Of a DNA stretch of 32,000 nucleotides, positions 1 through 32,000 are shown in pieces (position 1 is the first letter of the stretch; each line of letters starts with the position of its first letter). The DNA comes from Alphaproteobacteria bacterium (GTDB lineage Bacteria; Pseudomonadota; Alphaproteobacteria; Rs-D84), in contig JAFVFD010000002.1 in the NCBI GenBank assembly GCA_017475605.1, forward strand, positions 120,001 to 152,000. Reading direction: 5' to 3'. The position numbers were made by a program, and so were the translations under genes. The notes beneath the pieces are model-generated. The model was not told where the DNA came from and searched no databases. It worked only from the letters and a program-made list of their open reading frames with translations.

Positions 1-892
1 TTTGCACCGCACAACCTTTACTTAAAACAACACAATCCGTACCATTTGAATTAGGCGAATACCCATCCAAACACAACAAATGTTCTTTACCAACTTTTTT
101 TAAGTGTGGAGCAGAATTATAATATTTATTACAACACGAACACCCAGTTTCTGTACTTGTATATGCCAACTTTGCCCGAACAACAACAGGAGAAACAAAT
201 GCCCCATGTCCACCAGGAGCCCATTTTGTTACTGCCAAAATCATATCGTATTCTTCTTTGTTTTTTTCTTGGTTCATATGAAACATAGGCAACAAATCTT
301 CTATGTTTTGTGCGGCTTTTGTTACCATTTTAAAACCACTGAATTGATTTTTGTTCATAGTTGTTGTGTTACAACTAGATGCTTGTGTACTATTGCGACA
401 CTCTGTCCCAGAAAAGCCATCACGACACAACCAAAAACACTTTGAACCAGAAGCCGATTCAAAATATTCAGTACGGGCTTTTTCATCAACATCCTTATGA
501 CAATTGAACCAAGCCCAATGTTGTTTATAATCATCATTACTGGCCTCTAGTTGTGTTACGCAGAATTCAGCCCCATTCGCATTCACCTTACGAGCCATTA
601 AAACTAAAATTGCACCTGCATCTGTTTTTGTACCATGCTTTTTTGACAAATCACCAATCTTGTTATTTGTCCATACACCACAATCACTGAAACTGTCCCC
701 TATACAAGCCACATCACTATTAGAATGTTCAATAGCAGTAATAGTATAATTCTTAACACCAAAAAAATCGCGAATTTCTTCACTAATTTGATTATTTGTT
801 ATTGCACCGAAAGCGACATTCAATATGAATGTGTACACAAAGGCGAAAGAAAAGCCGCCCCGTATCAATCGGCTTTTTGATTTAAATAACAT
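1..892 (-). CDS. Secreted cysteine-rich protein with EGF-like half-motifs (5' part only; continues past the left edge)
   Basis: Absent from the ORF track because it has no stop in the window. I checked the minus frame (plus-strand triplets starting at 2,5,8...) codon by codon and it is stop-free from 892 to 2. ATG at 892-890 has GGGAG ~8 nt upstream. N-terminus MLFKSKSRLIRGGFSFAFVYTFILNVAFGA/ITNN is a Sec-type signal peptide. There are 14 Cys in the 297 visible residues, including LCRDGFSGTEC and CLDGYSPNSNGTDC (C-x2-G-[FY]-x4-8-C). The start overlaps the 3' end of the upstream gene by 28 nt. Confidence 0.65.
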   Translation of the reverse strand, partial: MLFKSKSRLIRGGFSFAFVYTFILNVAFGAITNNQISEEIRDFFGVKNYTITAIEHSNSDVACIGDSFSDCGVWTNNKIGDLSKKHGTKTDAGAILVLMARKVNANGAEFCVTQLEASNDDYKQHWAWFNCHKDVDEKARTEYFESASGSKCFWLCRDGFSGTECRNSTQASSCNTTTMNKNQFSGFKMVTKAAQNIEDLLPMFHMNQEKNKEEYDMILAVTKWAPGGHGAFVSPVVVRAKLAYTSTETGCSCCNKYYNSAPHLKKVGKEHLLCLDGYSPNSNGTDCVVLSKGCAVQ

Positions 893-3174
893 GTGCCGTT
901 CTCCCAATATCCACCAATGAAGTTACATCTGTTTTCATACCATTCAGTTGTAAAATTACATTTTTCGGTTTTTTCGTCATATTTGGCATAACCTTTACCA
1001 CCAGTTGCAACATCTTGTGCCTGGCATTGCATTTCAACTGTATTTTGAATACAGATTCCCCAATTTTCGGCTTTGTCTGTGTTGCCACCATATACGTTTC
1101 TATAAAAGCTGGATACATATGGAATATTAGTGCTATGGGTAACATCCTGTGCCATAGTTTTTGCCTCGTCAACTTTTTCCAACCACACCCCATCAAGCAA
1201 CTCACACTGTGTTGCAAGTTTTTGCGCCAAATCGATTTGAATATCATCAACCAATCTGTTTATAACTGTTGTTGTTTCTGCACCGGTCATGGTTGAATTA
1301 CAATATGTTTCGGACATCTTGTTAAGATTTGTTCTAAGTTCTGCTTCACTCATCAAACGGCAATTCCATGGATAGCCAATCGTACCTGATGTTGGTGTAC
1401 ATAATTCCTTGGCATAGTTTTCCATGGCAACTTCGCAACCTTCGTTAATACGAACAGTGTCAACACTGTCCACAAACTTGGTCAACGCGGTTAAACCACA
1501 GGCAGTTGCATTTTGCAATTTTCCATCATTACCAAAGTTACAAGATTCGCCATTCCCATATAACGCGGCGCATGCCGAAACCTTGTCCATGCACATTTGC
1601 TTTGCCGCATAGGCGGAAAGGGCACCGGTCATTTGTGCGGTTGTGGTATCAAAATCTTTCAATGCGGACGATTGTGTGTCATAGCATTCAGCCATGGTGC
1701 TTACGCAACTCATTTTGACTTCTTCTATCTTTTCATCTTGTGCCTGGGCAATTTCAATTAACGCTGTGCGTTTGAATTCTTCCCATACTATTTTTTGTAT
1801 ATCACGACAAGTGTCCAACGCGGTTGTTGCGAACATTTTGCGCGATTCCAAGAATCTGTTGAATTCTGGGTTTACGCCCAAAACATCCATACTGGTGTCG
1901 GAACCCGTATAACCCGGTAATGTAATAATATCTGTTAATTGGAATAAACGTGGCGAATAAATTGGTTCGCCGGTCGACTGATTAACATATGCACCCGTAT
2001 AGTCCAGGCAACGTTTATAGTTTGCCCCACACGCTGTGTCGGCGGTAATTGCCGCACGAACCTTGGATATACATTCATTAACATCGGCACTGTTGTGGGA
2101 ACGATATTCGTCCAAACGTGCCTCGCGTAAATACTTTTCCGCAGTACGAACGGTTTGTTTTACAGCCTCGACCTTTTTATCGATATTCTTTTGATATGCG
2201 TTACAATCTTGTGTAATCAGAATACTGTACGAAGAACGCGCCATGTTCGACACAGCGGCACTTTCGCACGAAGAAGAAACAAGATTCATACACTGTTTAT
2301 TCGCGGCATTATATAAATTAACACCTTCTAATTCCGACAGGTTTTGCCCACCACCATTACCACCAAAGATTGAAGAACCACCGTCGGACCAAATGTCGTC
2401 AATGTCCCCAGAAAAATCAAGCGACAGGACACCCAACGATGTCGAACTGGTGTTCGCGGTATATGTCTTCTTTTTACCGGACAACAAATCACCAATTTCA
2501 TCCAGCATCTTGGCCGCGCCACTGGTATCGTTTTTAATTGCCGCTTCGCCAACTGTGGCGGAATACATGGCGTTAACCTCGGCTGCGGTTTTATCAACCG
2601 CATTTAAATTATTATCTTCGAACCGCATTAATAATGTTTTTGCCTGGTCCAAAGCATCTTCTGTATTGCGGAATTCGGCAAAGCGCGAACTGCAATAGCA
2701 ACGACGATATGTATCGTTTGCGTTTGCACAGAATTGATCCATACATGTCGCATATGCTTCGCGGCAATTGGCATAGCCACCACCAATTTTAGAAATATCG
2801 TTAAATACCGCGGTTGCACGCGCAACAGATGCACGCGACACATTTGGTTTTACCGCGGAACGTGCCGTTGCACCACCGGTTGCACTGCGCGCATTGGTTG
2901 CGCGAACGGTGGTCGCACTGCGCCCAACGGTTGCCGCGCCACGCATAGCATTAGACACAACCGCACCACGCGCCGATGCCCGCGCATCAGCCGCACGCGA
3001 AACCGTACGATTTGTTGTCGCACGCGAAACAGTTGCCGAATCGGTACCACGTGTATTGGTCGCCGTCATTGACGAACCACGTGGGTTGGGGGCCTGGACC
3101 GACATCGCATCAAAGCCCACAAATACGGTCGCAGCCGCAATCAAAGAACGTAAAAGATTTATCCGGTTAAACAT
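865..3174 (-). CDS. Secreted 769-aa cysteine-rich protein with a basic R/A/S/T-rich N-terminal region; no recognisable family
   Basis: Long ORF in the track. Signal peptide MFNRINLLRSLIAAATVFVGFDAMSVQA. Residues ~29-125 are low-complexity with Arg every 5-9 residues (TVSRATTNRTVSRAADARASARG...). The remaining ~640 aa are helix-like and carry 28 Cys by my count, none before residue ~137. Confidence 0.8.
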   Translation of the reverse strand: MFNRINLLRSLIAAATVFVGFDAMSVQAPNPRGSSMTATNTRGTDSATVSRATTNRTVSRAADARASARGAVVSNAMRGAATVGRSATTVRATNARSATGGATARSAVKPNVSRASVARATAVFNDISKIGGGYANCREAYATCMDQFCANANDTYRRCYCSSRFAEFRNTEDALDQAKTLLMRFEDNNLNAVDKTAAEVNAMYSATVGEAAIKNDTSGAAKMLDEIGDLLSGKKKTYTANTSSTSLGVLSLDFSGDIDDIWSDGGSSIFGGNGGGQNLSELEGVNLYNAANKQCMNLVSSSCESAAVSNMARSSYSILITQDCNAYQKNIDKKVEAVKQTVRTAEKYLREARLDEYRSHNSADVNECISKVRAAITADTACGANYKRCLDYTGAYVNQSTGEPIYSPRLFQLTDIITLPGYTGSDTSMDVLGVNPEFNRFLESRKMFATTALDTCRDIQKIVWEEFKRTALIEIAQAQDEKIEEVKMSCVSTMAECYDTQSSALKDFDTTTAQMTGALSAYAAKQMCMDKVSACAALYGNGESCNFGNDGKLQNATACGLTALTKFVDSVDTVRINEGCEVAMENYAKELCTPTSGTIGYPWNCRLMSEAELRTNLNKMSETYCNSTMTGAETTTVINRLVDDIQIDLAQKLATQCELLDGVWLEKVDEAKTMAQDVTHSTNIPYVSSFYRNVYGGNTDKAENWGICIQNTVEMQCQAQDVATGGKGYAKYDEKTEKCNFTTEWYENRCNFIGGYWENGTCYLNQKAD

Positions 3175-12375: not shown

Positions 12376-13137
12376 TTACATAACTTTACCACTGGTGGGG
12401 TAAAATGTTAATTGTATTTTTTCCCACTTGGAAAACTCATTTTCAGGCAACATTTTCAACGGTTGACAGGTATTTATTGCCGCACGTATTGTATCCAAAA
12501 CATAAGCAAATGCCGCATCAGTTTCCGCGCGCGCCGCCGATTCAAACCACACATCGCGCACCGTTCCATTTTTACGCATAGTAAGGTGTGCCACCGCACG
12601 AATATCCGAAATATCATTTCTGTTTTTATCAATTACCCAACAACGCGTCATCGCCACACGCAACGCATCAACCACCGACACATTAAGTGTGCGATTCAAT
12701 GAAACACTTTCGCGGTTAACACGAATTACCATTTTCTTCTTTGGTGCGGCTGGGACCGGATCAACCTTGATTTCTTCGGGTGTGGGTTCCGGCTTTGCAT
12801 CCGGTTTGGTTTCCGGTTCGGGTTCGGCCAGCGATGGCGATTCTATATTTTTATCGGGCGCATCGGGGGCGGGGGCAGGTTCCGGCGATTCCGTCTTTTC
12901 TGGTTTTACATCCGGTTTTGTATCTTCGATTGGGTTTGTATTATAAAGTTTTGTTTCTTCGCCCGATATCGTAACAGAATCTAAATCAATTTCTGTAATT
13001 TCAATTCTGTCCGGCGCAATTAACAACGCACGATTAACCAACACCGCAAATGACGTTACCATAACAGATATAACAATCAGATGTCCAATCAAAGACATCA
13101 GTATATTTTCCAACGAAAATTGTTTATCTGGGTTCAT
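12376..13137 (-). CDS. tolA: TolA-like cell-envelope integrity protein
   Basis: N-terminal TM anchor, a Pro/Glu/Lys-rich linker (PEPAPAPDAP...EPEPETKPDAKPEPTPEE) and a C-terminal TolA/TonB-like globular domain. Follows tolQ-tolR with a 4-nt ATGA overlap. Confidence 0.75.
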   Translation of the reverse strand: MNPDKQFSLENILMSLIGHLIVISVMVTSFAVLVNRALLIAPDRIEITEIDLDSVTISGEETKLYNTNPIEDTKPDVKPEKTESPEPAPAPDAPDKNIESPSLAEPEPETKPDAKPEPTPEEIKVDPVPAAPKKKMVIRVNRESVSLNRTLNVSVVDALRVAMTRCWVIDKNRNDISDIRAVAHLTMRKNGTVRDVWFESAARAETDAAFAYVLDTIRAAINTCQPLKMLPENEFSKWEKIQLTFYPTSGKVM

Positions 13138-16736: not shown

Positions 16737-16766
16737 TTGACATGAATACCCCATTTGTTTTAAGAT
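16737..16766 (+). promoter_or_regulatory. Candidate promoter of the 16793 secreted-protein gene
   Basis: TTGACA - 18 nt - TAAGAT, lying back-to-back with the divergent minus-strand promoter. Its position favours the ATG at 16793 over the track start at 16742. Confidence 0.35.
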
Positions 16767-16792
16767 TTATTCGAGAGATAAAAGGTTTTGCT

Positions 16793-17713
16793 ATGTCTAA
16801 ACTAGGATTTTTGGCTGTTTTCGCGGTTTTTAGCGCATTTAATGCGTTTGCAGAAGACTTCGTTGAATACGAAAACTTTCAGACTATTTACACCGAAACA
16901 CCGGTACAATCATATTACGCGTACCCAGATGATCCGAATTTCATTCCGGAAACTGAATTTATGCAACGCGCAGACAGTTTGGACTATGACCAAAACATTA
17001 TAAATGCGCGCGAAGCGGAATCTGCGGCACACCCGGGGGTTATGTTTGCCGACCGCCCAATGATAATTTGTCGTAATTTTGGTTGTACAAAGTTAAACGA
17101 CCGTATCACGCGTACATTTTTATTTAACAGTTTGGCAAATATGTTCATGATGAACAGCCATTCCCGCGTATATATTTGTGAAGCGGACCCGTTTTCACGC
17201 GACTGCCTGCAATCTGGCATTTCATTCCCTGTGCGCAGCGGTGTTGCCAATGCCCTGGTCAAGATTCCCAAGGCCACCATATCCCAGGTTACTCTTTCCA
17301 CCGGTCTTTCCAAGGCAACCGTTGGTATGACCTATGAATTGTTGGTTAACGGTGTTTCCCGCGTGTGCGAACCAACCGTTATGGACATTGTTATTCCTGT
17401 TAATTCCCAGGCAACATTATCAAACCGCGAATTTACATGTAACATGACCAGCGACGGTTTAAGCAATGTGTCCTTGTTGGTTAATATTGATTATATCGAT
17501 TTAGACTATGGCATTTTGGGTGGTTATTATTCACTTGGGATGCAGGGTCCAACCACCGGTGGTGGCACAGGATACGCGTTATTCAAAACAGAATTCACGA
17601 CACGTGGTTTACAATTCCGCGCGGCCACTGATGACGATATGATGGGCGCAAATGGCGGTAATATGTTGACTATCCAACCGGGTGAATATGCCGTTGGGCC
17701 GTTGGCAAAATAA
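16793..17713 (+). CDS. Secreted hypothetical protein (306 aa, 6 Cys)
   Basis: From ATG 16793 the protein begins MSKLGFLAVFAVFSAFNAFA/EDF, a canonical Sec signal peptide. An AAAAGG RBS lies upstream. No family recognised. Confidence 0.7.
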   Translation: MSKLGFLAVFAVFSAFNAFAEDFVEYENFQTIYTETPVQSYYAYPDDPNFIPETEFMQRADSLDYDQNIINAREAESAAHPGVMFADRPMIICRNFGCTKLNDRITRTFLFNSLANMFMMNSHSRVYICEADPFSRDCLQSGISFPVRSGVANALVKIPKATISQVTLSTGLSKATVGMTYELLVNGVSRVCEPTVMDIVIPVNSQATLSNREFTCNMTSDGLSNVSLLVNIDYIDLDYGILGGYYSLGMQGPTTGGGTGYALFKTEFTTRGLQFRAATDDDMMGANGGNMLTIQPGEYAVGPLAK

Positions 17714-25160: not shown

Positions 25161-25191
25161 TTGACAAATATATTATTTTGTGTTATATAAT
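25161..25191 (+). promoter_or_regulatory. Candidate promoter of the 25213 orphan gene
   Basis: Consensus TTGACA - 17 nt - TATATA (or 19 nt - TATAAT). Confidence 0.4.
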
Positions 25192-25212
25192 AATGGAACA
25201 AAAGGTAAAATA

Positions 25213-25704
25213 ATGAAAAAACAAATAAAAGATATGACCAAGGCCGAAAAATTATCACGCATTGAACGTTTGTCTTTAAAATTTCATGATATTGAAACGA
25301 TACCGTCCGTATTGTTATCGGACGAGGCCAAACGCACACAGTCAGATAAAACAATAATTGACGCGATTAACAAATTGGAAACACTGGAAATTCAAAGCCA
25401 CCAACTAGAACAAGCCCATTCGGATGTCATGGCGCGTGATTTACGCCCATTAAAGCGTATTTATGATTACGAAACCGAAAAACTGGCCAAGAAACAAGAA
25501 TCTGAAAACCAAACATATCTTTCGCGCAGAATACCTGTTCCACAACACATTCAACAAAAACACATTAGCGAAAAGAAAGAATTGGAAACCAAACACGCAA
25601 ATCGCAAAAAAGCAGCATTGGCCCCAACAGAAACTAAACTTGCGGAATGTAAACAAAAAATATATTCGGTATTTATGGACGCAGTCCGATATCTGTACAG
25701 GTAA
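25213..25704 (+). CDS. Hypothetical charged, probably coiled-coil protein (163 aa)
   Basis: ORF from ATG 25213 (MKKQIKDMTKAEK). Rich in K/E/Q with heptad-like stretches and no signal peptide. It has its own promoter and terminator. Confidence 0.55.
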   Translation: MKKQIKDMTKAEKLSRIERLSLKFHDIETIPSVLLSDEAKRTQSDKTIIDAINKLETLEIQSHQLEQAHSDVMARDLRPLKRIYDYETEKLAKKQESENQTYLSRRIPVPQHIQQKHISEKKELETKHANRKKAALAPTETKLAECKQKIYSVFMDAVRYLYR

Positions 25705-27569: not shown

Positions 27570-27595
27570 TTTTTGCTAAAAATCGTACAAACATA

Positions 27596-27630
27596 CCGAG
27601 TCTGTTATTGACAGACTCGGTTGTTTTTTT
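27596..27630 (+). terminator. Rho-independent terminator after rpsA
   Basis: 10-bp perfect stem CCGAGTCTGT/ACAGACTCGG with loop TATTG, followed by TTGTTTTTTT. Confidence 0.8.
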
Positions 27631-27637
27631 CTAACAT
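27608..27637 (+). promoter_or_regulatory. Candidate promoter of the giant gene, embedded in the rpsA terminator
   Basis: TTGACA (terminator loop and 3' arm) - 18 nt - TAACAT. The purine-rich GAGGAAGGG follows at 27647-27655. Confidence 0.3.
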
Positions 27638-27689
27638 TCAAAGAAAGAGGAAGGGTACTATCATTCAACGACACACAATTCTTAAACGA

Positions 27690-30600
27690 ATGTTTGTGGC
27701 GACTTTGTTTGTCGTGGGGGTCTTTATTTGCCCGAATACTCCGGTGTCTGCGATTCAGCGCAATGTTCCGCAACCAACAAATACGCGTACGGTTGTTAAC
27801 AGAACATCCCCTAAAACAGTACCGGCGCGCACAACGGTATCCAGGGCTACAATAAACCAATCAACCTCATCACAGACACCTGTGAAACGCGCTGCGATAT
27901 CAACCAGCCAAAAAGCATCCCGAAATCCGATAAACGCAACAAAAACACAAAAACCAGCTGTCGAATCTGCAACACAAACTCGTACGATTGTACAAAAATC
28001 TTCTAGAAGCACGACCCGCCGTTATCAAGCAAACACTCAATCACGCACACAATCGCGCACAGCCACAATACAAAACAGAACCACACCTCCAACTAATGAC
28101 TCTACGTTGGTAAAAATGCACATTCCTGCCGATTTACGTTCAAGCCCAAACATTCAAGCATATATAACTATGTCGGGTGGGGATGATTATATTGTATTTA
28201 AATTATTCAAAAACAAATTACCCAATTTATCGACACTGTTCCAAAATCTGGGCGGAAACATGGGGGTCTTTGCCGAAAACAATACCACCAGCACCCAGAT
28301 TGTGGCAACAAACGGGACCCCGACAACGACTTCTGATCGCGAAGTTTATTTACTGAAACAACAAACAGGTGGCGGTGGTGGCGCATGTGCAAGTAATTCC
28401 GATTGTGGCGACGGAACATGTAATGCCAGTGGTATCTGCCAGTGCTTTGATAACGCATCCAAGGGGGCCAATGGCAAATGCACATGTAATTCAGGATATT
28501 ACCAGTCTGGTGGCGCATGCGTTGCGGACACATCGGGCACTGATACGAATAATTTAACATTTACAACATGCAACACCAATTCGGAATGTGCCAGTGGCCA
28601 ATGTAATTACGGCGTGTGTGTTAAGGATGACCCCAGCAGCTTTAAGTGTAACGAAGAAACAATCCAACCCGTATTCGCCATCACTGTAAAAGGAACATCG
28701 GTTTTTAATGTAAATATTCGCGCCGCAGGAACATTCTTTCTTTTTGCTCCGCACGGTGGGGTTATATCTAGTAATGGTACTACGACTTGTACGTCTAATA
28801 TTATAAAATTAGAACGCCCAACAACGGCTGGCACAGGAACGTTATCCGCCACCATTACTGATTCAGACGAATACACAACGCTGTATTTTGGTGGCATGGC
28901 GACCGAATATCCGAATAACGATACCCCAGTGATTGAATTTCAAAATACCACAGGGACATATATTGATTACAGACCATATATCTATGAAGTGTCCGGCTCG
29001 ATTGGTGCGATATTCCCCACAATTGGCGATGCGACCAGTGTCGATTACACAAAACAACCACGTTTCAAGGGGTTGTTTTCTAACGCGGTTAATCTGCGTT
29101 CTATACCGTCTGGGTTATTTGACGGCATCCATGGCCAACCGGTTGCGGATATGTTTTCTGGTGTGTTTTCTGGCTGCACCGGTTTAACCGGTTCAATTCC
29201 GGACAGATTATTTGCCGGCCTGACCGGAACGGCAGATAGCTTATTCGCGTCGACATTTTATAATTGCTCTGGGCTAACAGGTTTAATTCCCGCAAACCTG
29301 TTTGACGGTCTGACCGGCCCATACAAGCAACGTATGTTCATTAACACATTTGCTTATTGCAGTGGCCTTACTGGCAATATTCCAGATGGTTTGTTTGGTA
29401 ATTTGACTATCAATGATCCACTCGCCTATACAGCACAAACATTTAGCATGACATTTGACCGCTGCAGCGGCTTAACCGGCTATGTTCCATCCAGCATGTA
29501 TAAAGGGTTGGACGGGAAATCGGTCAATAGCACTTTTGGTACAAATGGCGATACATTTTATGGTTGCACAGGAATGGCAACATCTTGCGAAAATGGTTAT
29601 ATAAAAGATCCCGCCGCCGCAAACTATGAGCAATATTGGAGCAATCATGTCGCCTGTATCCCAGATGGCAGCAGCAGTCCCACACCGCCGGCCGCGCAAC
29701 AAACCATGACAATACCATTTTCAACGGCCGATTATGAACTGGGCAATGACACCACCGCAGATGAAGTATTTACCACAAGTTCACGCACAATTAACTTGGC
29801 ATCCGTACTAAACAATGCAACTGGTACGGTTACTGTTGACTGGGGCGACGGCACCAGTGTTGCTACAATCACCGCAGGTGATGCACTGCCATCACATACG
29901 TATACCGGCAACAGTGTATATAACATCACATTAACGGGCGACATTCCCGAAATGAAATCGACCAGCGACAATGTTGTGGCAACATGTACCGGTAATGCCG
30001 ATGAAATTCGTATCAACGAAACCCAATGCGCACGAACCAAGTTCAGAATTAACACAACGTCTGATGCCGACGAGTTTTTAATCTATATCGGTGCCGCGGG
30101 AACATTCTATATCGATTGGGATGATGGTTCCGCACCAAGTGTAATTACACATGCGACACCAATTGCGGTACCGTATTCCCATAAATATACAACGGTGCAA
30201 TCGCGAACGATTCGCATTGGCGGTTTGGCAACGGAATACCCACCATTGAATATCAACCCCGCCATATCATTTTTCTATAACAACATTTCACACCCCAATT
30301 ACATACACAGTGTTTCCGGTTCGTTGGGCGAATTGTTCCCCAGTTATGGCACTGCCGTTGGGCAAACACCACGATTTCGCAACACATTTCTGTATGCGAC
30401 TAATATGTACACAATTCCGAACACTTTATTCAGCGGGATAAGCAACGGTTCGGGAACCGTTGCGCCGATATCAAGTATGTTCGAAGGAACGTTTAAACAC
30501 TCCGGTCTGACCGAAATACCGACGGGTCTGTTTGCCGAAATTGGGGGCGCACCGGCCAACAGTATGTTTGAAGAAACGTTTTATATGGCGGAAAATCTGG

Positions 30601-32000
30601 CTGGCGAGATTCCATCGGATTTATTCGCCGGCATTCGCGGCGCACCGGCGGAACAAATGTACGAACGCACATTTGGTAGCACAAAATTAAGTGGCGAATT
30701 GCCTGATTATCTGTTTGGCAATTTGAATGGTGCGCCACAATATGCGATGTTCATGCAAACATTTGTCAACGACACGGGGCTAACGGGACAAATTCCGGAT
30801 CATTTGTTTGGCGATTTGACTGGTTCAATTGATGTTCGCTGGGCGTTTTATGAAACATTCAAGGGGTGTTCTAAACTAACCGGATATATACCATCAACAT
30901 TATTTGGCACCGTCACGGGCAATGCCGGCGATGGAACATTTAGCGACACATTCACTGGAACTGGCTTGTTGGAAAATATATGCCCCAGTAATTTTCATCC
31001 ATATCCCACCTATAACAACCGATTTGCAACATATTGGGATGGCCATATTGCATGCGAAGCCGATGATGCGATTCCTGCTGACCCGGCGCTGGGCACGTGC
31101 ACCGACGCAGAAAATGAAATTGTCGTTGGCGATGGCAAATGTGTTACATCAAAATTCATTGTCGAAACAAAATCTGTAAGTAAAGTGGTATTTTCAATCA
31201 GTGCCGCCGGTATATTCTATTACGATTGTGGCGATGGCAAAGGGGGGCATGTAATCAACCGTACCGATGACACAACACCGCGTACATATTATTGCAACTA
31301 TGACACCACCGGCAAATACACTGTCCGATTTGCCGGCACTGCAACTGGTTATTCAACCGACGAACAGACCGCCGCAATAAGCTTCAATTATAACGAATCA
31401 GATTCGTCAAAGTGCGACATCACATCAATCACAGGCTCGTTGGGTTCCGTATTTCCAAGCATTGATTCCACTGGCACTAATGGCAAGACTCCGCGTTTCA
31501 CTAACACATTCAAGTATTGTGGGCTTGACTCCATTCCCGAAAACCTGTTCAGTGGCGTAAATGGACAACCAGTATCATATATGTTCATGGGAACATTTAG
31601 CGGCGCAAAGGCAACGTCTATTCCAGCCGGATTATTCAGTGGTATAAACGGCACGCCCACACCCCACCTGTTTGAAGGCACATTCAGTGGCATGACACTG
31701 TTAAGTGGCACCATAAGCTCTGATTTATTCGCGGGAATCCGTGGCGAACCAGCACCGTATATGTTCAAATCCACGTTCCAAAATTGTTATGATAATTTTT
31801 ATAAACGGTCTTTTTCAATTGATGACGATTTATTCAGCGGAATATCTGGCGCACCCGCGACAAGCATGTTTGAAAGCACATTTGAACACACAACATTGAA
31901 CAAATTACCACCGCGCTTGTTCCGCCGTATATCCGGCGCACCGGCGACAAAAATGTTCGCACATACGTTTGATGGAACATCGCCATATGAGGGTGGTACA
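27690..32000 (+). CDS. Giant secreted modular repeat protein (at least 1,437 aa; 3' end beyond the window): signal peptide, basic leader, EGF-like Cys knots, and at least 3 super-modules of PKD-like domain + ~30-aa repeat array + Cys cap
   Basis: Absent from the ORF track because there is no stop in the window. The frame of ATG 27690 is open to 32000 (4,311 nt = 1,437 codons); I translated it fully and checked coordinates at several landmarks. MFVATLFVVGVFICPNTPVSA is a signal peptide. The true start may be non-canonical at 27663 (see findings). Confidence 0.85.
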   Translation, partial: MFVATLFVVGVFICPNTPVSAIQRNVPQPTNTRTVVNRTSPKTVPARTTVSRATINQSTSSQTPVKRAAISTSQKASRNPINATKTQKPAVESATQTRTIVQKSSRSTTRRYQANTQSRTQSRTATIQNRTTPPTNDSTLVKMHIPADLRSSPNIQAYITMSGGDDYIVFKLFKNKLPNLSTLFQNLGGNMGVFAENNTTSTQIVATNGTPTTTSDREVYLLKQQTGGGGGACASNSDCGDGTCNASGICQCFDNASKGANGKCTCNSGYYQSGGACVADTSGTDTNNLTFTTCNTNSECASGQCNYGVCVKDDPSSFKCNEETIQPVFAITVKGTSVFNVNIRAAGTFFLFAPHGGVISSNGTTTCTSNIIKLERPTTAGTGTLSATITDSDEYTTLYFGGMATEYPNNDTPVIEFQNTTGTYIDYRPYIYEVSGSIGAIFPTIGDATSVDYTKQPRFKGLFSNAVNLRSIPSGLFDGIHGQPVADMFSGVFSGCTGLTGSIPDRLFAGLTGTADSLFASTFYNCSGLTGLIPANLFDGLTGPYKQRMFINTFAYCSGLTGNIPDGLFGNLTINDPLAYTAQTFSMTFDRCSGLTGYVPSSMYKGLDGKSVNSTFGTNGDTFYGCTGMATSCENGYIKDPAAANYEQYWSNHVACIPDGSSSPTPPAAQQTMTIPFSTADYELGNDTTADEVFTTSSRTINLASVLNNATGTVTVDWGDGTSVATITAGDALPSHTYTGNSVYNITLTGDIPEMKSTSDNVVATCTGNADEIRINETQCARTKFRINTTSDADEFLIYIGAAGTFYIDWDDGSAPSVITHATPIAVPYSHKYTTVQSRTIRIGGLATEYPPLNINPAISFFYNNISHPNYIHSVSGSLGELFPSYGTAVGQTPRFRNTFLYATNMYTIPNTLFSGISNGSGTVAPISSMFEGTFKHSGLTEIPTGLFAEIGGAPANSMFEETFYMAENLAGEIPSDLFAGIRGAPAEQMYERTFGSTKLSGELPDYLFGNLNGAPQYAMFMQTFVNDTGLTGQIPDHLFGDLTGSIDVRWAFYETFKGCSKLTGYIPSTLFGTVTGNAGDGTFSDTFTGTGLLENICPSNFHPYPTYNNRFATYWDGHIACEADDAIPADPALGTCTDAENEIVVGDGKCVTSKFIVETKSVSKVVFSISAAGIFYYDCGDGKGGHVINRTDDTTPRTYYCNYDTTGKYTVRFAGTATGYSTDEQTAAISFNYNESDSSKCDITSITGSLGSVFPSIDSTGTNGKTPRFTNTFKYCGLDSIPENLFSGVNGQPVSYMFMGTFSGAKATSIPAGLFSGINGTPTPHLFEGTFSGMTLLSGTISSDLFAGIRGEPAPYMFKSTFQNCYDNFYKRSFSIDDDLFSGISGAPATSMFESTFEHTTLNKLPPRLFRRISGAPATKMFAHTFDGTSPYEGGT
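29055..29534 (+). repeat. Array 1 of ~30-aa coding repeats (5 units) inside the giant gene
   Basis: QPRFKGLFSNAVNLRSIPSGLFDGIHGQPVAD / MFSGVFSGCTGLTGSIPDRLFAGLTGTADS / LFASTFYNCSGLTGLIPANLFDGLTGPYKQR / MFINTFAYCSGLTGNIPDGLFGNL... / FSMTFDRCSGLTGYVPSSMYKGLDG... Confidence 0.8.
30366..30938 (+). repeat. Array 2 of ~30-aa coding repeats (6 units)
   Basis: TPRFRNTFLYATNMYTIPNTLFSGISNG... / MFEGTFKHSGLTEIPTGLFAEIGGAPANS / MFEETFYMAENLAGEIPSDLFAGIRGAPAEQ / MYERTFGSTKLSGELPDYLFGNLNGAPQYA / MFMQTFVNDTGLTGQIPDHLFGDLTG... / FYETFKGCSKLTGYIPSTLFGTVTG... Confidence 0.8.
31488..32000 (+). repeat. Array 3 of ~30-aa coding repeats (at least 6 units, truncated by the window edge)
   Basis: TPRFTNTFKYCGLDSIPENLFSGVNGQPVSY / MFMGTFSGAKATSIPAGLFSGINGTPTPH / LFEGTFSGMTLLSGTISSDLFAGIRGEPAPY / MFKSTFQNC...DDDLFSGISGAPATS / MFESTFEHTTLNKLPPRLFRRISGAPATK / MFAHTFDG... 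Confidence 0.8.

What the first reader, a model, noticed from the sequence alone, without database searches (positions are those of the whole stretch)
29055..29534. Unassigned ~29-33-aa repeat 'MF-x2-TF-x2-C-x-GLTG-x-IP-x2-LF-x-G-[LI]-x-G-x-P' (at least 17 copies in three arrays)
Arrays lie at 29055-29534, 30366-30938 and 31488-32000+. The 'LTGxIPxxLF' core resembles the plant-type LRR 'LxGxIPxxL'. The 'MFxxCxxLT' part resembles BspA/DUF285-type surface-protein repeats. However, the period (~30 aa rather than ~23-25) and the Phe-dominated core fit neither as I remember them. In modules 2 and 3 the inter-repeat turn becomes G-[IL]-x-G-A-P-A, visible in DNA as the recurring GGCGCACCGGC. The conserved Cys is present in array 1 and largely lost in arrays 2 and 3, which suggests sub-functionalisation of the arrays.
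Basis: partly seen in the sequence, partly recalled or inferred. Interest (0 to 1): 0.7.

Follow-up and report, generated by a model that had tools for sequence, protein, structure and literature searches.

The report
Long-period LRR repeats in surface protein
The repeat is real: it is a 29-31-residue leucine-rich-repeat-type coil, a distant unmodelled cousin of the BspA/DUF285 surface-protein repeats, and it builds the binding modules of a very large secreted protein in a tiny-genome gut alphaproteobacterium (Candidatus Enterousia lineage).

Summary
Observation confirmed. One + strand ORF (start 27690 or 27621, running off the window at 32000; at least 1436 aa) carries 16 full and 2 partial copies of MFxxTFxxCxGLTGxIPxxLFxG[IL]xGxPAxx in three arrays (29058-29600, 30369-30995, 31491-31997).

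- An HMM built from array 1 alone finds arrays 2 and 3 at 148 bits; 200 shuffles reach at most 4 bits.
- No Pfam or NCBIfam model reaches the window protein.
- A profile of the module matches solved LRRs (E 7e-13 to 1e-6), needing about 6 deleted residues per repeat.
- AlphaFold2 models are confident (pLDDT 94 and 88) and show a solenoid, not disorder.
- Some family members pass Pfam's own DUF285 or LRR_5 thresholds.

Each array sits in a roughly 350-aa module: a PKD-like beta-sandwich, the solenoid, then a Cys-containing cap. The family is large (2186 clusters at E<=1e-30; proteins up to about 7600 aa). In species-representative genomes it was found only in rumen and gut Rs-D84 / Ca. Enterousia MAGs, using one motif.

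Most likely role (inferred): ligand-binding modules of a giant secreted adhesin. Verdict: a new long-period variant of a known kind. The 'sub-functionalisation' reading of the Cys loss is not supported.

The parts
27690..32000 (+). Giant repeat-protein gene, 3' end beyond the window (at least 1436 aa). The start is ATG 27690, or possibly TTG 27621.
   Evidence: A single open frame runs from 27612 to the window end. The basic stretch IIQRHTILKR upstream of ATG 27690 is conserved in P0001's annotated N-terminus, which hints at the upstream start. The codons were read.
27595..27630 (+). Hairpin plus T-run after rpsA. Likely the rpsA terminator, so the repeat gene probably has its own transcription start.
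   Evidence: Read directly in the sequence: ccgagtctgt-tatt-gacagactcgg followed by ttgttttttt. Inference only.
27690..27752 (+). Sec-type signal peptide-like N-terminus MFVATLFVVGVFICPNTPVSA.
   Evidence: Hydrophobic core followed by VSA. Judged by eye; no predictor was available.
27753..28106 (+). Low-complexity T/S/R/Q-rich linker (118 aa).
   Evidence: Composition T26 S15 R14 Q12.
28107..28364 (+). Conserved N-terminal domain of unknown function (LVKMHIPADL...VYLLKQQ).
   Evidence: Shared with P0001 and P0002. No Pfam hit.
28368..28622 (+). Two small Cys-rich (EGF-like) segments.
   Evidence: Cys pattern. Relatives carry Ephrin_rec_like and EGF_3 hits.
28647..29021 (+). Module 1 N-terminal beta-sandwich (degenerate 'AAGTFF' version of the GTFYVDWGDG domain), ending in the VSGSIGAIFPT linker.
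   Evidence: Aligns with the module 2 sandwich. Module 2 was modelled as a beta-sandwich.
29058..29600 (+). Array 1: 5 full repeats plus a degenerate cap unit. This is the finding's own coordinates.
   Evidence: Units. HMM domains score 37-46 bits each. AF2 model pLDDT 87.8.
29553..29669 (+). C-terminal cap of module 1 (TFYGCTGMATSC...YWSNHVAC).
   Evidence: Cap with Cys residues conserved in the family alignment. Modelled with helices and a strand.
29709..29954 (+). Stand-alone PKD-like domain between modules 1 and 2 (..VTVDWGDGTS..HTYTG..).
   Evidence: PKD_4 E=0.01, below Pfam's cut-off. Relatives have significant PKD hits.
30027..30344 (+). Module 2 N-terminal beta-sandwich (AAGTFYIDWDDG).
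   Evidence: AF2 model, residues 1-98 all beta, pLDDT above 90.
30369..30995 (+). Array 2: 6 full repeats plus a cap unit.
   Evidence: AF2 pLDDT 94.2.
30939..31067 (+). C-terminal cap of module 2 (..ENICPSNF..YWDGHIACE).
   Evidence: Helix 327-336 and a terminal strand in the model.
31140..31460 (+). Module 3 N-terminal beta-sandwich (SAAGIFYYDCGDG).
   Evidence: Alignment to the other modules.
31491..31997 (+). Array 3: 5 full repeats plus one cut by the window end.

Best explanation
The repeat is a leucine-rich-repeat-superfamily solenoid unit of unusual length (29-31 aa). It is a divergent, unmodelled branch of the BspA (LRR_5/TpLRR) and DUF285 ('26-residue repeat', PARCEL) surface-protein repeats.

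Four to fifteen units stack into one coil-per-repeat solenoid. The invariant Phe/Leu/Ile residues (MF, TF, L, I, LF, I) would fill the core, and the x positions would form a variable surface.

Each solenoid is fused N-terminally to a PKD-like beta-sandwich carrying the GTFYVDWGDG motif. It is closed by a Cys-containing C-terminal cap. Together these make a module of about 350 aa.

The window gene strings at least three such modules behind a signal peptide, a low-complexity linker and small Cys-rich domains.

The organism belongs to the Rs-D84 / Candidatus Enterousia lineage: gut alphaproteobacteria with genomes under 1 Mbp and no TCA cycle or respiration. The protein most likely acts as a secreted, surface-exposed multivalent binding protein (adhesin), attaching the cell to a host or partner-cell surface. 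Diversified modules would offer different binding faces.

Shown: the repeat itself, its statistics, LRR-superfamily homology, the confident solenoid fold, the module architecture, the lineage and the family size.

Inferred: secretion, surface exposure, the core and variable-surface assignment, adhesion, and the ligand.
For: Repeat reality and period.

LRR homology:
- Profile A2 against PDB sequences: designed LRR 4psj 7e-13, LRRTM 5a5c 7e-11, VLR/repebody 1e-7 to 1e-5, BspA-like 4gt6 1.3e-6 and 4fs7 1.8e-4. The alignments pair 'LTsIPxgLFxxI' with 'LqSLPnGvFdkL' and delete 5-6 residues per unit.

Bridge to BspA/DUF285:
- P0007 array, LRR_5 42.2 bits (cut-off 27.7).
- P0289, LRR_5 71.6 bits.
- P0237 (same unit, period 32, linker DTSNATNTSYMF), DUF285 29.2 bits (cut-off 25).
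- P0274, DUF285 56.5 bits.
- These proteins match the module profile at E 1e-28 to 1e-111 over 76-94% of it.
- PHROG 9915 matches array 1 at 2e-19, with 172 residues aligned to 146 profile positions.

Fold:
- AF2 pLDDT 94.2 / pTM 0.92 for module 2, and 87.8 / 0.87 for array 1.
- One pair of short strands per unit, at 'LTG' and '[IL]xG', in both models.
- All top-50 PDB Foldseek hits of the array-only model are LRR proteins, though none is significant.

Lineage and lifestyle:
- The window's RpsA is 87-92% identical to RpsA in Ca. Enterousia / Alphaproteobacteria MAG loci.
- All 43 genome loci found with the module motif are rumen or gut Alphaproteobacteria / Ca. Enterousia MAGs.
- Reduced genomes without TCA cycle or respiration: PMC12306168.

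Family size: 2186 clusters at E<=1e-30, and proteins with up to 25 matched stretches.

Extracytoplasmic cues: signal-peptide-like N-terminus, Cys at module borders, and PKD, EGF-like and Flg_new partner domains in relatives.
Against: - No experimental or expression evidence exists. The function is by analogy to BspA-type and other LRR surface proteins.
- Foldseek finds no solved structure with significant similarity (best E 0.018, TM<=0.31).
- DSSP places the strands at 'LTG' and '[IL]xG', not at the MFxxTF segment that HMMER aligns to the canonical LxL strand. The register of the concave face is therefore unresolved.
- Model coordinates could not be inspected, so horseshoe versus straight rod, handedness and curvature are unknown.
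- The C-terminus lies outside the window. No anchor or outer-membrane export signal was seen, so surface exposure in a diderm is unexplained.
- Signal-peptide cleavage was not predicted with a dedicated tool.
- The genome scan used a single peptide pattern, so 'only Alphaproteobacteria' is biased. Divergent members (P0022 with Fib_succ_major; P0274 and P0289 with pilin-like N_methyl leaders) probably come from other phyla.
Confidence: 0.8

Rival explanations
1. The repeat is a plant-specific-type LRR (LxGxIPxxLxxL) acquired from, or sharing ancestry with, plant and eukaryotic receptor-kinase ectodomains.
For: The core LTGxIPxxLF looks like the plant-specific motif. The top non-significant Foldseek PDB hits of the array model are plant LRR receptor-kinase ectodomains (RGFR1, BRL3, ERL2, PEPR1).
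Against: Those hits have E 0.018-0.1, TM<=0.24 and rmsd 11-17 A. In the sequence-profile search FLS2 scores only E 0.1-0.14, while typical and VLR-type LRRs score 1e-13 to 1e-5 and BspA-like 4gt6 scores 1e-6. The period is 30 aa, not 24. Family members pass the DUF285 and LRR_5 thresholds, not plant LRR models.
Confidence: 0.05
2. It is simply a member of DUF285 or LRR_5 that the Pfam HMMs miss through lack of sensitivity. In other words, it is nothing distinct.
For: Bridging members pass DUF285 or LRR_5. The module architecture (PKD-like sandwich plus repeats) is shared with '26-residue repeat' phage proteins.
Against: No DUF285 or LRR_5 hit on the window protein even at E<10. Only 9 of about 145 relatives were flagged. 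The period is sharply 29-31 aa in 75% of 4019 spacings, against 25-26 (DUF285) and about 23 (LRR_5) (PMC2996958). The WDxSNVTxM signature of DUF285 is replaced by G[IL]xGxPAxxM. No solved or BFVD structure superposes well on the array (TM<=0.6).
Confidence: 0.1
3. The arrays are structural rather than adhesive. They would be spacer or stalk elements, or an S-layer-like envelope component of a reduced-genome cell, with binding done by other domains.
For: Very long, modular proteins (up to 25 modules). A rigid solenoid plus Ig-like domains is a common stalk design in giant adhesins (own knowledge). The repeat DNA is old and diverged, with no sign of rapid turnover.
Against: The x positions of the units are highly variable while the core is invariant. 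That is the pattern of diversifying binding surfaces in LRRs. There is no evidence either way from expression or localisation.
Confidence: 0.05

Closest known systems
[quoted passage not shown]
   Same: - Tandem, sequence-variable repeats with a periodic hydrophobic core containing ..MFxx[AC]xx[FL]..
- Surface or secreted proteins of host-associated microbes and phages.
- The same module design: a PKD-like GxYxVDWGDG beta-sandwich followed by the repeats. This gives the best significant fold matches.
- Bridging members P0237 and P0274 pass Pfam's DUF285 threshold.
   Different: - Unit of 29-31 aa against the canonical 25 (PMC2996958).
- The WDxSNVTxM signature is replaced by G[IL]xGxPAxxM.
- An added TFxxC and an IPxxLF segment.
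- The DUF285 HMM does not hit the window protein or most relatives.
BspA-type / TpLRR leucine-rich repeats (Pfam LRR_5 PF13306; structures 4fs7, 4gt6, 4h09, 6mlx)
   Same: - The FxxCxxLxxIxIPxxLxxI core is recognisable as TFxxCxxLTxIPxxLFxxI.
- 4gt6 and 4fs7 are hit by the module profile (1.3e-6 and 1.8e-4).
- P0007 and P0289 pass LRR_5.
- TpLRR 6mlx gives the highest TM among the PDB hits, though only about 0.3.
   Different: - Period about 23 against 30.
- Two residues fewer in the L..I.IP strand and about 8 more before it (GxPAxxMFxx).
- Superposition is poor (TM about 0.3, E above 0.2).
Typical (VLR / LRRTM / repebody) 24-residue LRRs
   Same: Best sequence-profile matches (7e-13 to 1e-5). 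'NxLxSLPxGvFdxLxxL' pairs with 'CxGLTSIPxGLFxGIxG'.
   Different: Eukaryotic proteins with a 24-aa unit. Every alignment needs a 5-6-residue deletion per repeat. No structural match is significant.
Giant multi-domain bacterial adhesins (e.g. SiiE, the Mobiluncus 7651-aa adhesin; PMC6272769, PMC10619420)
   Same: Very large, modular, repeat-built secreted proteins that are the largest genes in their genomes. They are presumed to mediate attachment.
   Different: Those are chains of Ig-like or BIg domains with known secretion routes (T1SS or sortase). Here the repeating module is a sandwich plus an LRR solenoid, and the export and anchoring route is unknown.

Membership tests
Leucine-rich repeat superfamily (Pfam clan CL0022) | Tandem units of 20-30 aa, each forming one coil of a solenoid. 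| tested here: met
   Units of 29-31 aa. Confident AF2 models show a periodic pattern of one strand pair per unit and no long helices. Coordinates were not inspected.
Leucine-rich repeat superfamily (Pfam clan CL0022) | Significant sequence similarity to established LRR proteins. | tested here: met
   Profile against PDB sequences: 27 distinct LRR chains at E<1e-3, best 7e-13.
Leucine-rich repeat superfamily (Pfam clan CL0022) | Canonical conserved segment LxxLxLxx(N/C)xL, with its beta-strand on the concave face. | tested here: inconclusive
   MFxxTFxxCxxL approximates it, and HMMER aligns the F of TF to L6 and places the Cys next to N9. DSSP on both models instead puts the strands at 'LTG' and '[IL]xG'.
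Leucine-rich repeat superfamily (Pfam clan CL0022) | Structural superposition on a solved LRR. | tested here: not met
DUF285 (PF03382) / TIGR02167 | Match to the family HMM above its gathering score. | tested here: not met
   No hit for the window protein at E<10 and none among the 25 closest relatives. Two of 120 wider relatives pass.
DUF285 (PF03382) / TIGR02167 | Canonical 25-26-residue unit with the WDxSNVTxMxxMF signature (PMC2996958). | tested here: not met
   The period is 29-31 aa and the signature is absent from the window units. It is present only in the bridging member P0237.
DUF285 (PF03382) / TIGR02167 | Architecture and fold shared with annotated members. | tested here: met
   BFVD hits to '26-residue repeat' proteins at E 6e-7 and 3e-5 with probability 1.0, and a whole-module match at TM 0.52.
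LRR_5, BspA type (PF13306) | Match to the family HMM above its gathering score. | tested here: not met
   No hit for the window protein. Three of the 25 proteins in A1 (the window protein plus its 24 closest relatives) match LRR_5 at E<=0.01, and of those only P0007 was re-scanned and shown above the cut-off: 42.2 bits inside its 29-aa-period array. Four of 120 wider relatives are flagged, but on re-scan only P0289 passes (71.6 bits); P0181, P0208 and P0239 fall below the 27.7 cut-off.
LRR_5, BspA type (PF13306) | Unit of about 23 residues: LxxIxIPxxVxxIxxxAFxxCxx. | tested here: not met
   The unit is 29-31 aa. The core motif is recognisable but has a 2-residue deletion and an insertion of about 8 residues (the comparison with the TpLRR consensus rests on own knowledge).
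Plant-specific LRR (LxGxIPxxLxxL, 24 aa) | Significant similarity to plant LRR ectodomains, and a 24-aa unit. | tested here: not met
   FLS2 E 0.1-0.14. Foldseek E>=0.018 with TM<=0.24. The period is 30 aa.

The most novel reading that the evidence does not exclude
The 29-31-aa unit would define a new structural class of LRR. It would be a helix-free coil with two short strand ladders per turn (at 'LTG' and '[IL]xG') and a Phe-packed core, with geometry matched by no solved structure.

The giant proteins built from it, with up to about 25 modules, would be the attachment apparatus that lets the sub-megabase, non-respiring Rs-D84 / Enterousia bacteria live on a specific host or partner cell in the gut.
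Probability: 0.3. Interest if true: 0.65.

Novelty: new variant of a known kind. Interest (0 to 1): 0.5.

Why it matters
Curated domain libraries miss a very abundant repeat. There are 2186 protein clusters at 50% identity with E<=1e-30, 6729 with E<=1e-10, and proteins of up to about 7600 aa. As a result, the largest genes of an uncultured, genome-reduced gut lineage (Rs-D84 / Ca. Enterousia) are annotated 'hypothetical', or named only after their minor domains.

A dedicated model would do three things:
- annotate thousands of metagenomic proteins;
- extend the known length range and geometry of non-helical LRRs;
- single out the most plausible host- or partner-attachment factors of bacteria whose lifestyle (free-living or epibiotic/parasitic) is unknown.

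A bacterium with under 1 Mbp of DNA spending many kilobases on such genes argues that they are central to its biology.

Tried and rejected
- Pfam and NCBIfam scans of the window protein at E<10: only sub-threshold PKD_4 and chance hits. Pfam on the N-terminal 403 aa: nothing.
- Foldseek of the whole-module model against PDB: only insignificant beta-sandwich overlaps.
- tblastn of module 2 against 50,697 phage records: no match, even though BFVD and PHROG 9915 do show relatives.
- Genome scan with the full alignment A2 failed for lack of a conserved stretch. The scan with the whole window protein found no relative, so the window's own genome is apparently not among the species representatives. 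The third attempt, with the smaller alignment A3, worked.
- No exact or near-exact copy of the window protein is in the 5.8-billion-protein database; the best hit has 32% identity.
- DNA-level repeat searches: only 18-49-nt matches at 60-89% identity, and no roughly 90-nt tandem array by TRF. Recent duplication or slippage-driven phase variation is therefore rejected.
- The PARCEL-type 'amphipathic helix' reading of such repeats (PMC2996958) is rejected for this family, because both AF2 models lack helices within the units.
- Compositional artefact is rejected by the shuffle control.
Full report
**1. What is in the sequence**

The finding lies in one long + strand reading frame. It opens at 27612, after the rpsA stop, and runs off the window end at 32000.

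The first ATG is at 27690 and gives MFVATLFVVGVFICPNTPVSA, which looks like a signal peptide. An in-frame TTG at 27621 is a possible earlier start. The basic stretch IIQRHTILKR upstream of the ATG is conserved in the annotated N-terminus of the best homologue, P0001. A hairpin plus T-run at 27595-27630 looks like the rpsA terminator.

The at least 1436-aa product contains, in order (coordinates):
- a T/S/R/Q-rich low-complexity linker;
- a conserved domain of unknown function;
- two small Cys-rich segments;
- three modules of about 350 aa each.

Each module has three parts. First comes a beta-rich domain with the motif (A/K)GTFY(V/I)DWGDG...H.Y...G.YTI.. and a linker (V/I)SGSLGxxFP. Then comes an array of the roughly 30-aa repeat. 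Last is a cap ending ..C.....YWDGH(V/I)xCE. A separate PKD-like domain sits between modules 1 and 2 (PKD_4 E=0.01).

**2.

Put in register, the units are:
- 29058-29552 plus a cap unit to 29600;
- 30369-30938 plus a cap unit to 30995;
- 31491-31952 plus a cut unit.

That is 16 full and 2 partial copies.

An HMM built from array 1 alone scores the remainder of the protein at 148 bits (E 4e-46). The best of 200 shuffles scores 4 bits. No copy occurs elsewhere in the six frames of the window.

Otherwise the repeats are only 60-89% alike over at most 49 nt. TRF sees no array with a period near 90 nt. These are old, diverged repeats kept by selection on the protein.

**3. It is a family, and a big one**

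The word-indexed search found 24 relatives, the best being two Alphaproteobacteria MAG proteins. All have the same unit at a period of 29-31 aa.

An exhaustive profile search with a module alignment (A2) found, among 1.84 billion cluster representatives:
- 19,700 proteins at E<=1e-3;
- 6,729 at E<=1e-10;
- 2,186 at E<=1e-30.

Individual proteins reach about 7,600 aa, with up to 25 matched stretches.

Across 287 proteins and 4,019 repeats, 75% of spacings are 29-31 aa. The consensus of 4,424 instances is M-F-x-x-T-F-x-[GN]-C-[TS]-x-L-T-[GT]-x-I-P-x-x-L-F-x-G-[IVL]-x-G-A-P-A-x-x. Phe, Thr, Pro and Leu are 90-100% conserved, and the Cys 79%.

**4. What kind of repeat**

Curated libraries do not cover it. 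Pfam and NCBIfam give nothing on the window protein even at E<10. Most relatives have no Pfam domain on the arrays.

It is nonetheless demonstrably an LRR-superfamily repeat. The module profile hits 27 solved LRR chains at E<1e-3: designed LRR 4psj 7e-13, LRRTM 5a5c 7e-11, VLR and repebodies, and BspA-like 4gt6 1.3e-6 and 4fs7 1.8e-4. The alignments pair CxGLTSIPxGLFxGI with NxLxSLPxGvFdkL and delete 5-6 residues in every unit.

Bridging members tie it specifically to the BspA/DUF285 branch:
- P0007's 29-aa-period array passes LRR_5 (42.2 bits against 27.7).
- P0289 passes LRR_5 (71.6 bits).
- P0237 has the same MFxxTFxxCSGLTxIPxGLFDSI unit with a DTSNATNTSYMF linker, and passes DUF285 (29.2 bits against 25).
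- P0274, with a period of about 27, passes DUF285 at 56.5 bits.

The canonical DUF285/PARCEL unit is 25 residues, WDxSNVTxMxxMFxxAxxFNxDIsx (PMC2996958). PHROG 9915 (unknown function) also matches array 1 at 2e-19, with 172 residues aligned to 146 profile positions. That again indicates a shorter period in the known relatives.

**5. Structure**

AlphaFold2 with family alignments gives confident models. Module 2 scores pLDDT 94.2 and pTM 0.92. Array 1, at the finding's own coordinates, scores pLDDT 87.8 and pTM 0.87. Only the two long inter-unit insertions fall below 70. The 'disordered' refutation therefore fails.

Residues 1-98 of the module form a beta-sandwich. Each repeat contributes two short strands or bridges, at 'LTG' and at '[IL]xG', and no helix. 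A short helix and strand form the cap.

Foldseek against BFVD gives the only significant structural neighbours:
- a whole-module match to a Synechococcus phage 'PKD domain-containing protein' (E 7e-8, TM 0.52 in both directions, 338 columns);
- a 'BspA family leucine-rich repeat surface protein' (1.5e-5, TMt 0.59).

Against PDB nothing is significant. With the array-only model every one of the top 50 hits is an LRR protein, but the best is E 0.018 with TM<=0.31 (TpLRR 6mlx about 0.3). The topology class is LRR, but no solved structure has this geometry.

My reading is inference. Compared with the TpLRR/BspA unit LxxIxIPxxLxxIxxxAFxxCxx, this unit shortens the first strand (LTxIP). It also inserts about 8 residues (GxPAxxMFxx) that add a second ladder and a second Phe layer.

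**6. The Cys**

However, the position is C 79%, otherwise T/A/S, across the family. HMMER places it beside position 9 (N/C) of the canonical LRR. Replacement by small polar residues is ordinary at that position (own knowledge). I see no evidence for sub-functionalisation.

The Cys residues at module borders (for example C766/C780 and C1098/C1122) are better candidates for disulfides. This was not tested.

**7. Organism and context**

The window is chromosomal housekeeping DNA: dnaE, secA, ruvB, a two-component pair, argS, rplM, tig, thyA and rpsA.

Its RpsA is 87-92% identical to RpsA in loci from Ca. Enterousia and related Alphaproteobacteria MAGs. A scan of 185,579 species-representative genomes with the motif [KAE]GTFY[IV]DW returned 43 confirmed loci. 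All come from uncultured Alphaproteobacteria or Ca. Enterousia MAGs of goat, sheep, buffalo, yak, deer, cattle and human gut. Several MAGs contributed two loci.

This lineage (order Rs-D84) has genomes under 1 Mbp and lacks the TCA cycle, respiratory chains and standard nutrient transporters (PMC12306168). One relative, MBO4480294.1, is 6,326 aa long.

The lineage restriction is biased by the single pattern used. Divergent members with Fib_succ_major or pilin-like N_methyl leaders probably come from other phyla.

**8. Mechanism (inferred)**

The likely sequence is Sec export, then folding in an oxidising compartment, then display of a chain of sandwich-plus-solenoid modules. Invariant aromatic and aliphatic residues would build the core, and the variable x positions would form ligand-binding faces, as in BspA-type and other LRR surface proteins.

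For a genome-reduced, metabolically dependent gut bacterium, the most plausible role is multivalent attachment to a host or partner-cell surface. Export across an outer membrane, anchoring and the ligand are all unknown. The C-terminus lies outside the window.

**9. Verdict**

The feature is real and of a known kind: the LRR superfamily, BspA/DUF285 branch. It is a distinct long-period variant that curated models and solved structures do not cover, and it is very abundant in metagenomes.

It is moderately interesting. It offers an annotation gap worth closing and a handle on the biology of Rs-D84 bacteria. It is not a new principle.

Noticed in passing
window 865-3174 (-): A 769-aa ORF with no NCBIfam hit (E<=1e-10) and no Pfam hit (E<=1e-3). 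It is a large protein of unknown function in a reduced genome.
   Followed up: partly
window 25180-25704 (+), 16742-17713 (+), 12376-13137 (-): Three ORFs (174, 323 and 253 aa) without any Pfam hit; the 174- and 323-aa ORFs also had no NCBIfam hit (the 253-aa ORF was not scanned against NCBIfam). The 174-aa ORF sits between thyA and rpsA, where folA might be expected. It is absent from the related locus L043, where thyA and rpsA are adjacent.
   Followed up: partly
window 28107-28364 (+): A conserved domain of about 86 aa (LVKMHIPADL...YIVFKLFKNKLP...VYLLKQQ) near the N-terminus of the giant protein. It is shared with P0001 and P0002 but has no Pfam model. It could be an envelope-anchoring or export-related domain.
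   Followed up: no
window 27612-27689 (+): The translated region upstream of the first ATG (..RKRKGTIIQRHTILKR) is conserved with P0001's annotated N-terminus. The true start may therefore be the TTG at 27621, which overlaps the rpsA terminator-like hairpin, or a non-canonical codon.
   Followed up: partly
L024, L025, L043, L027, L032: In related MAGs a module-bearing gene also lies near rpsA and thyA, but on the opposite strand and on the other side. The neighbourhood seems to be a recurrent, rearranged site for these genes.
   Followed up: partly
P0274, P0289 (relatives, not in the window): Shorter-period relatives carry an N-terminal type IV pilin-like N_methyl leader instead of a Sec signal (N_methyl E 0.002 for P0289; judged by eye for P0274). 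This suggests that in other phyla the same solenoid is displayed as a pilin or pseudopilin fusion.
   Followed up: no
P0025/P0167 (MBO4480294.1), contig JAFZZS010000003.1 (L002): A 6,295-6,326-aa relative with 25 matched stretches of the module profile, from a buffalo-rumen Alphaproteobacteria MAG. NCBI names it only 'InlB B-repeat-containing protein'.
   Followed up: partly
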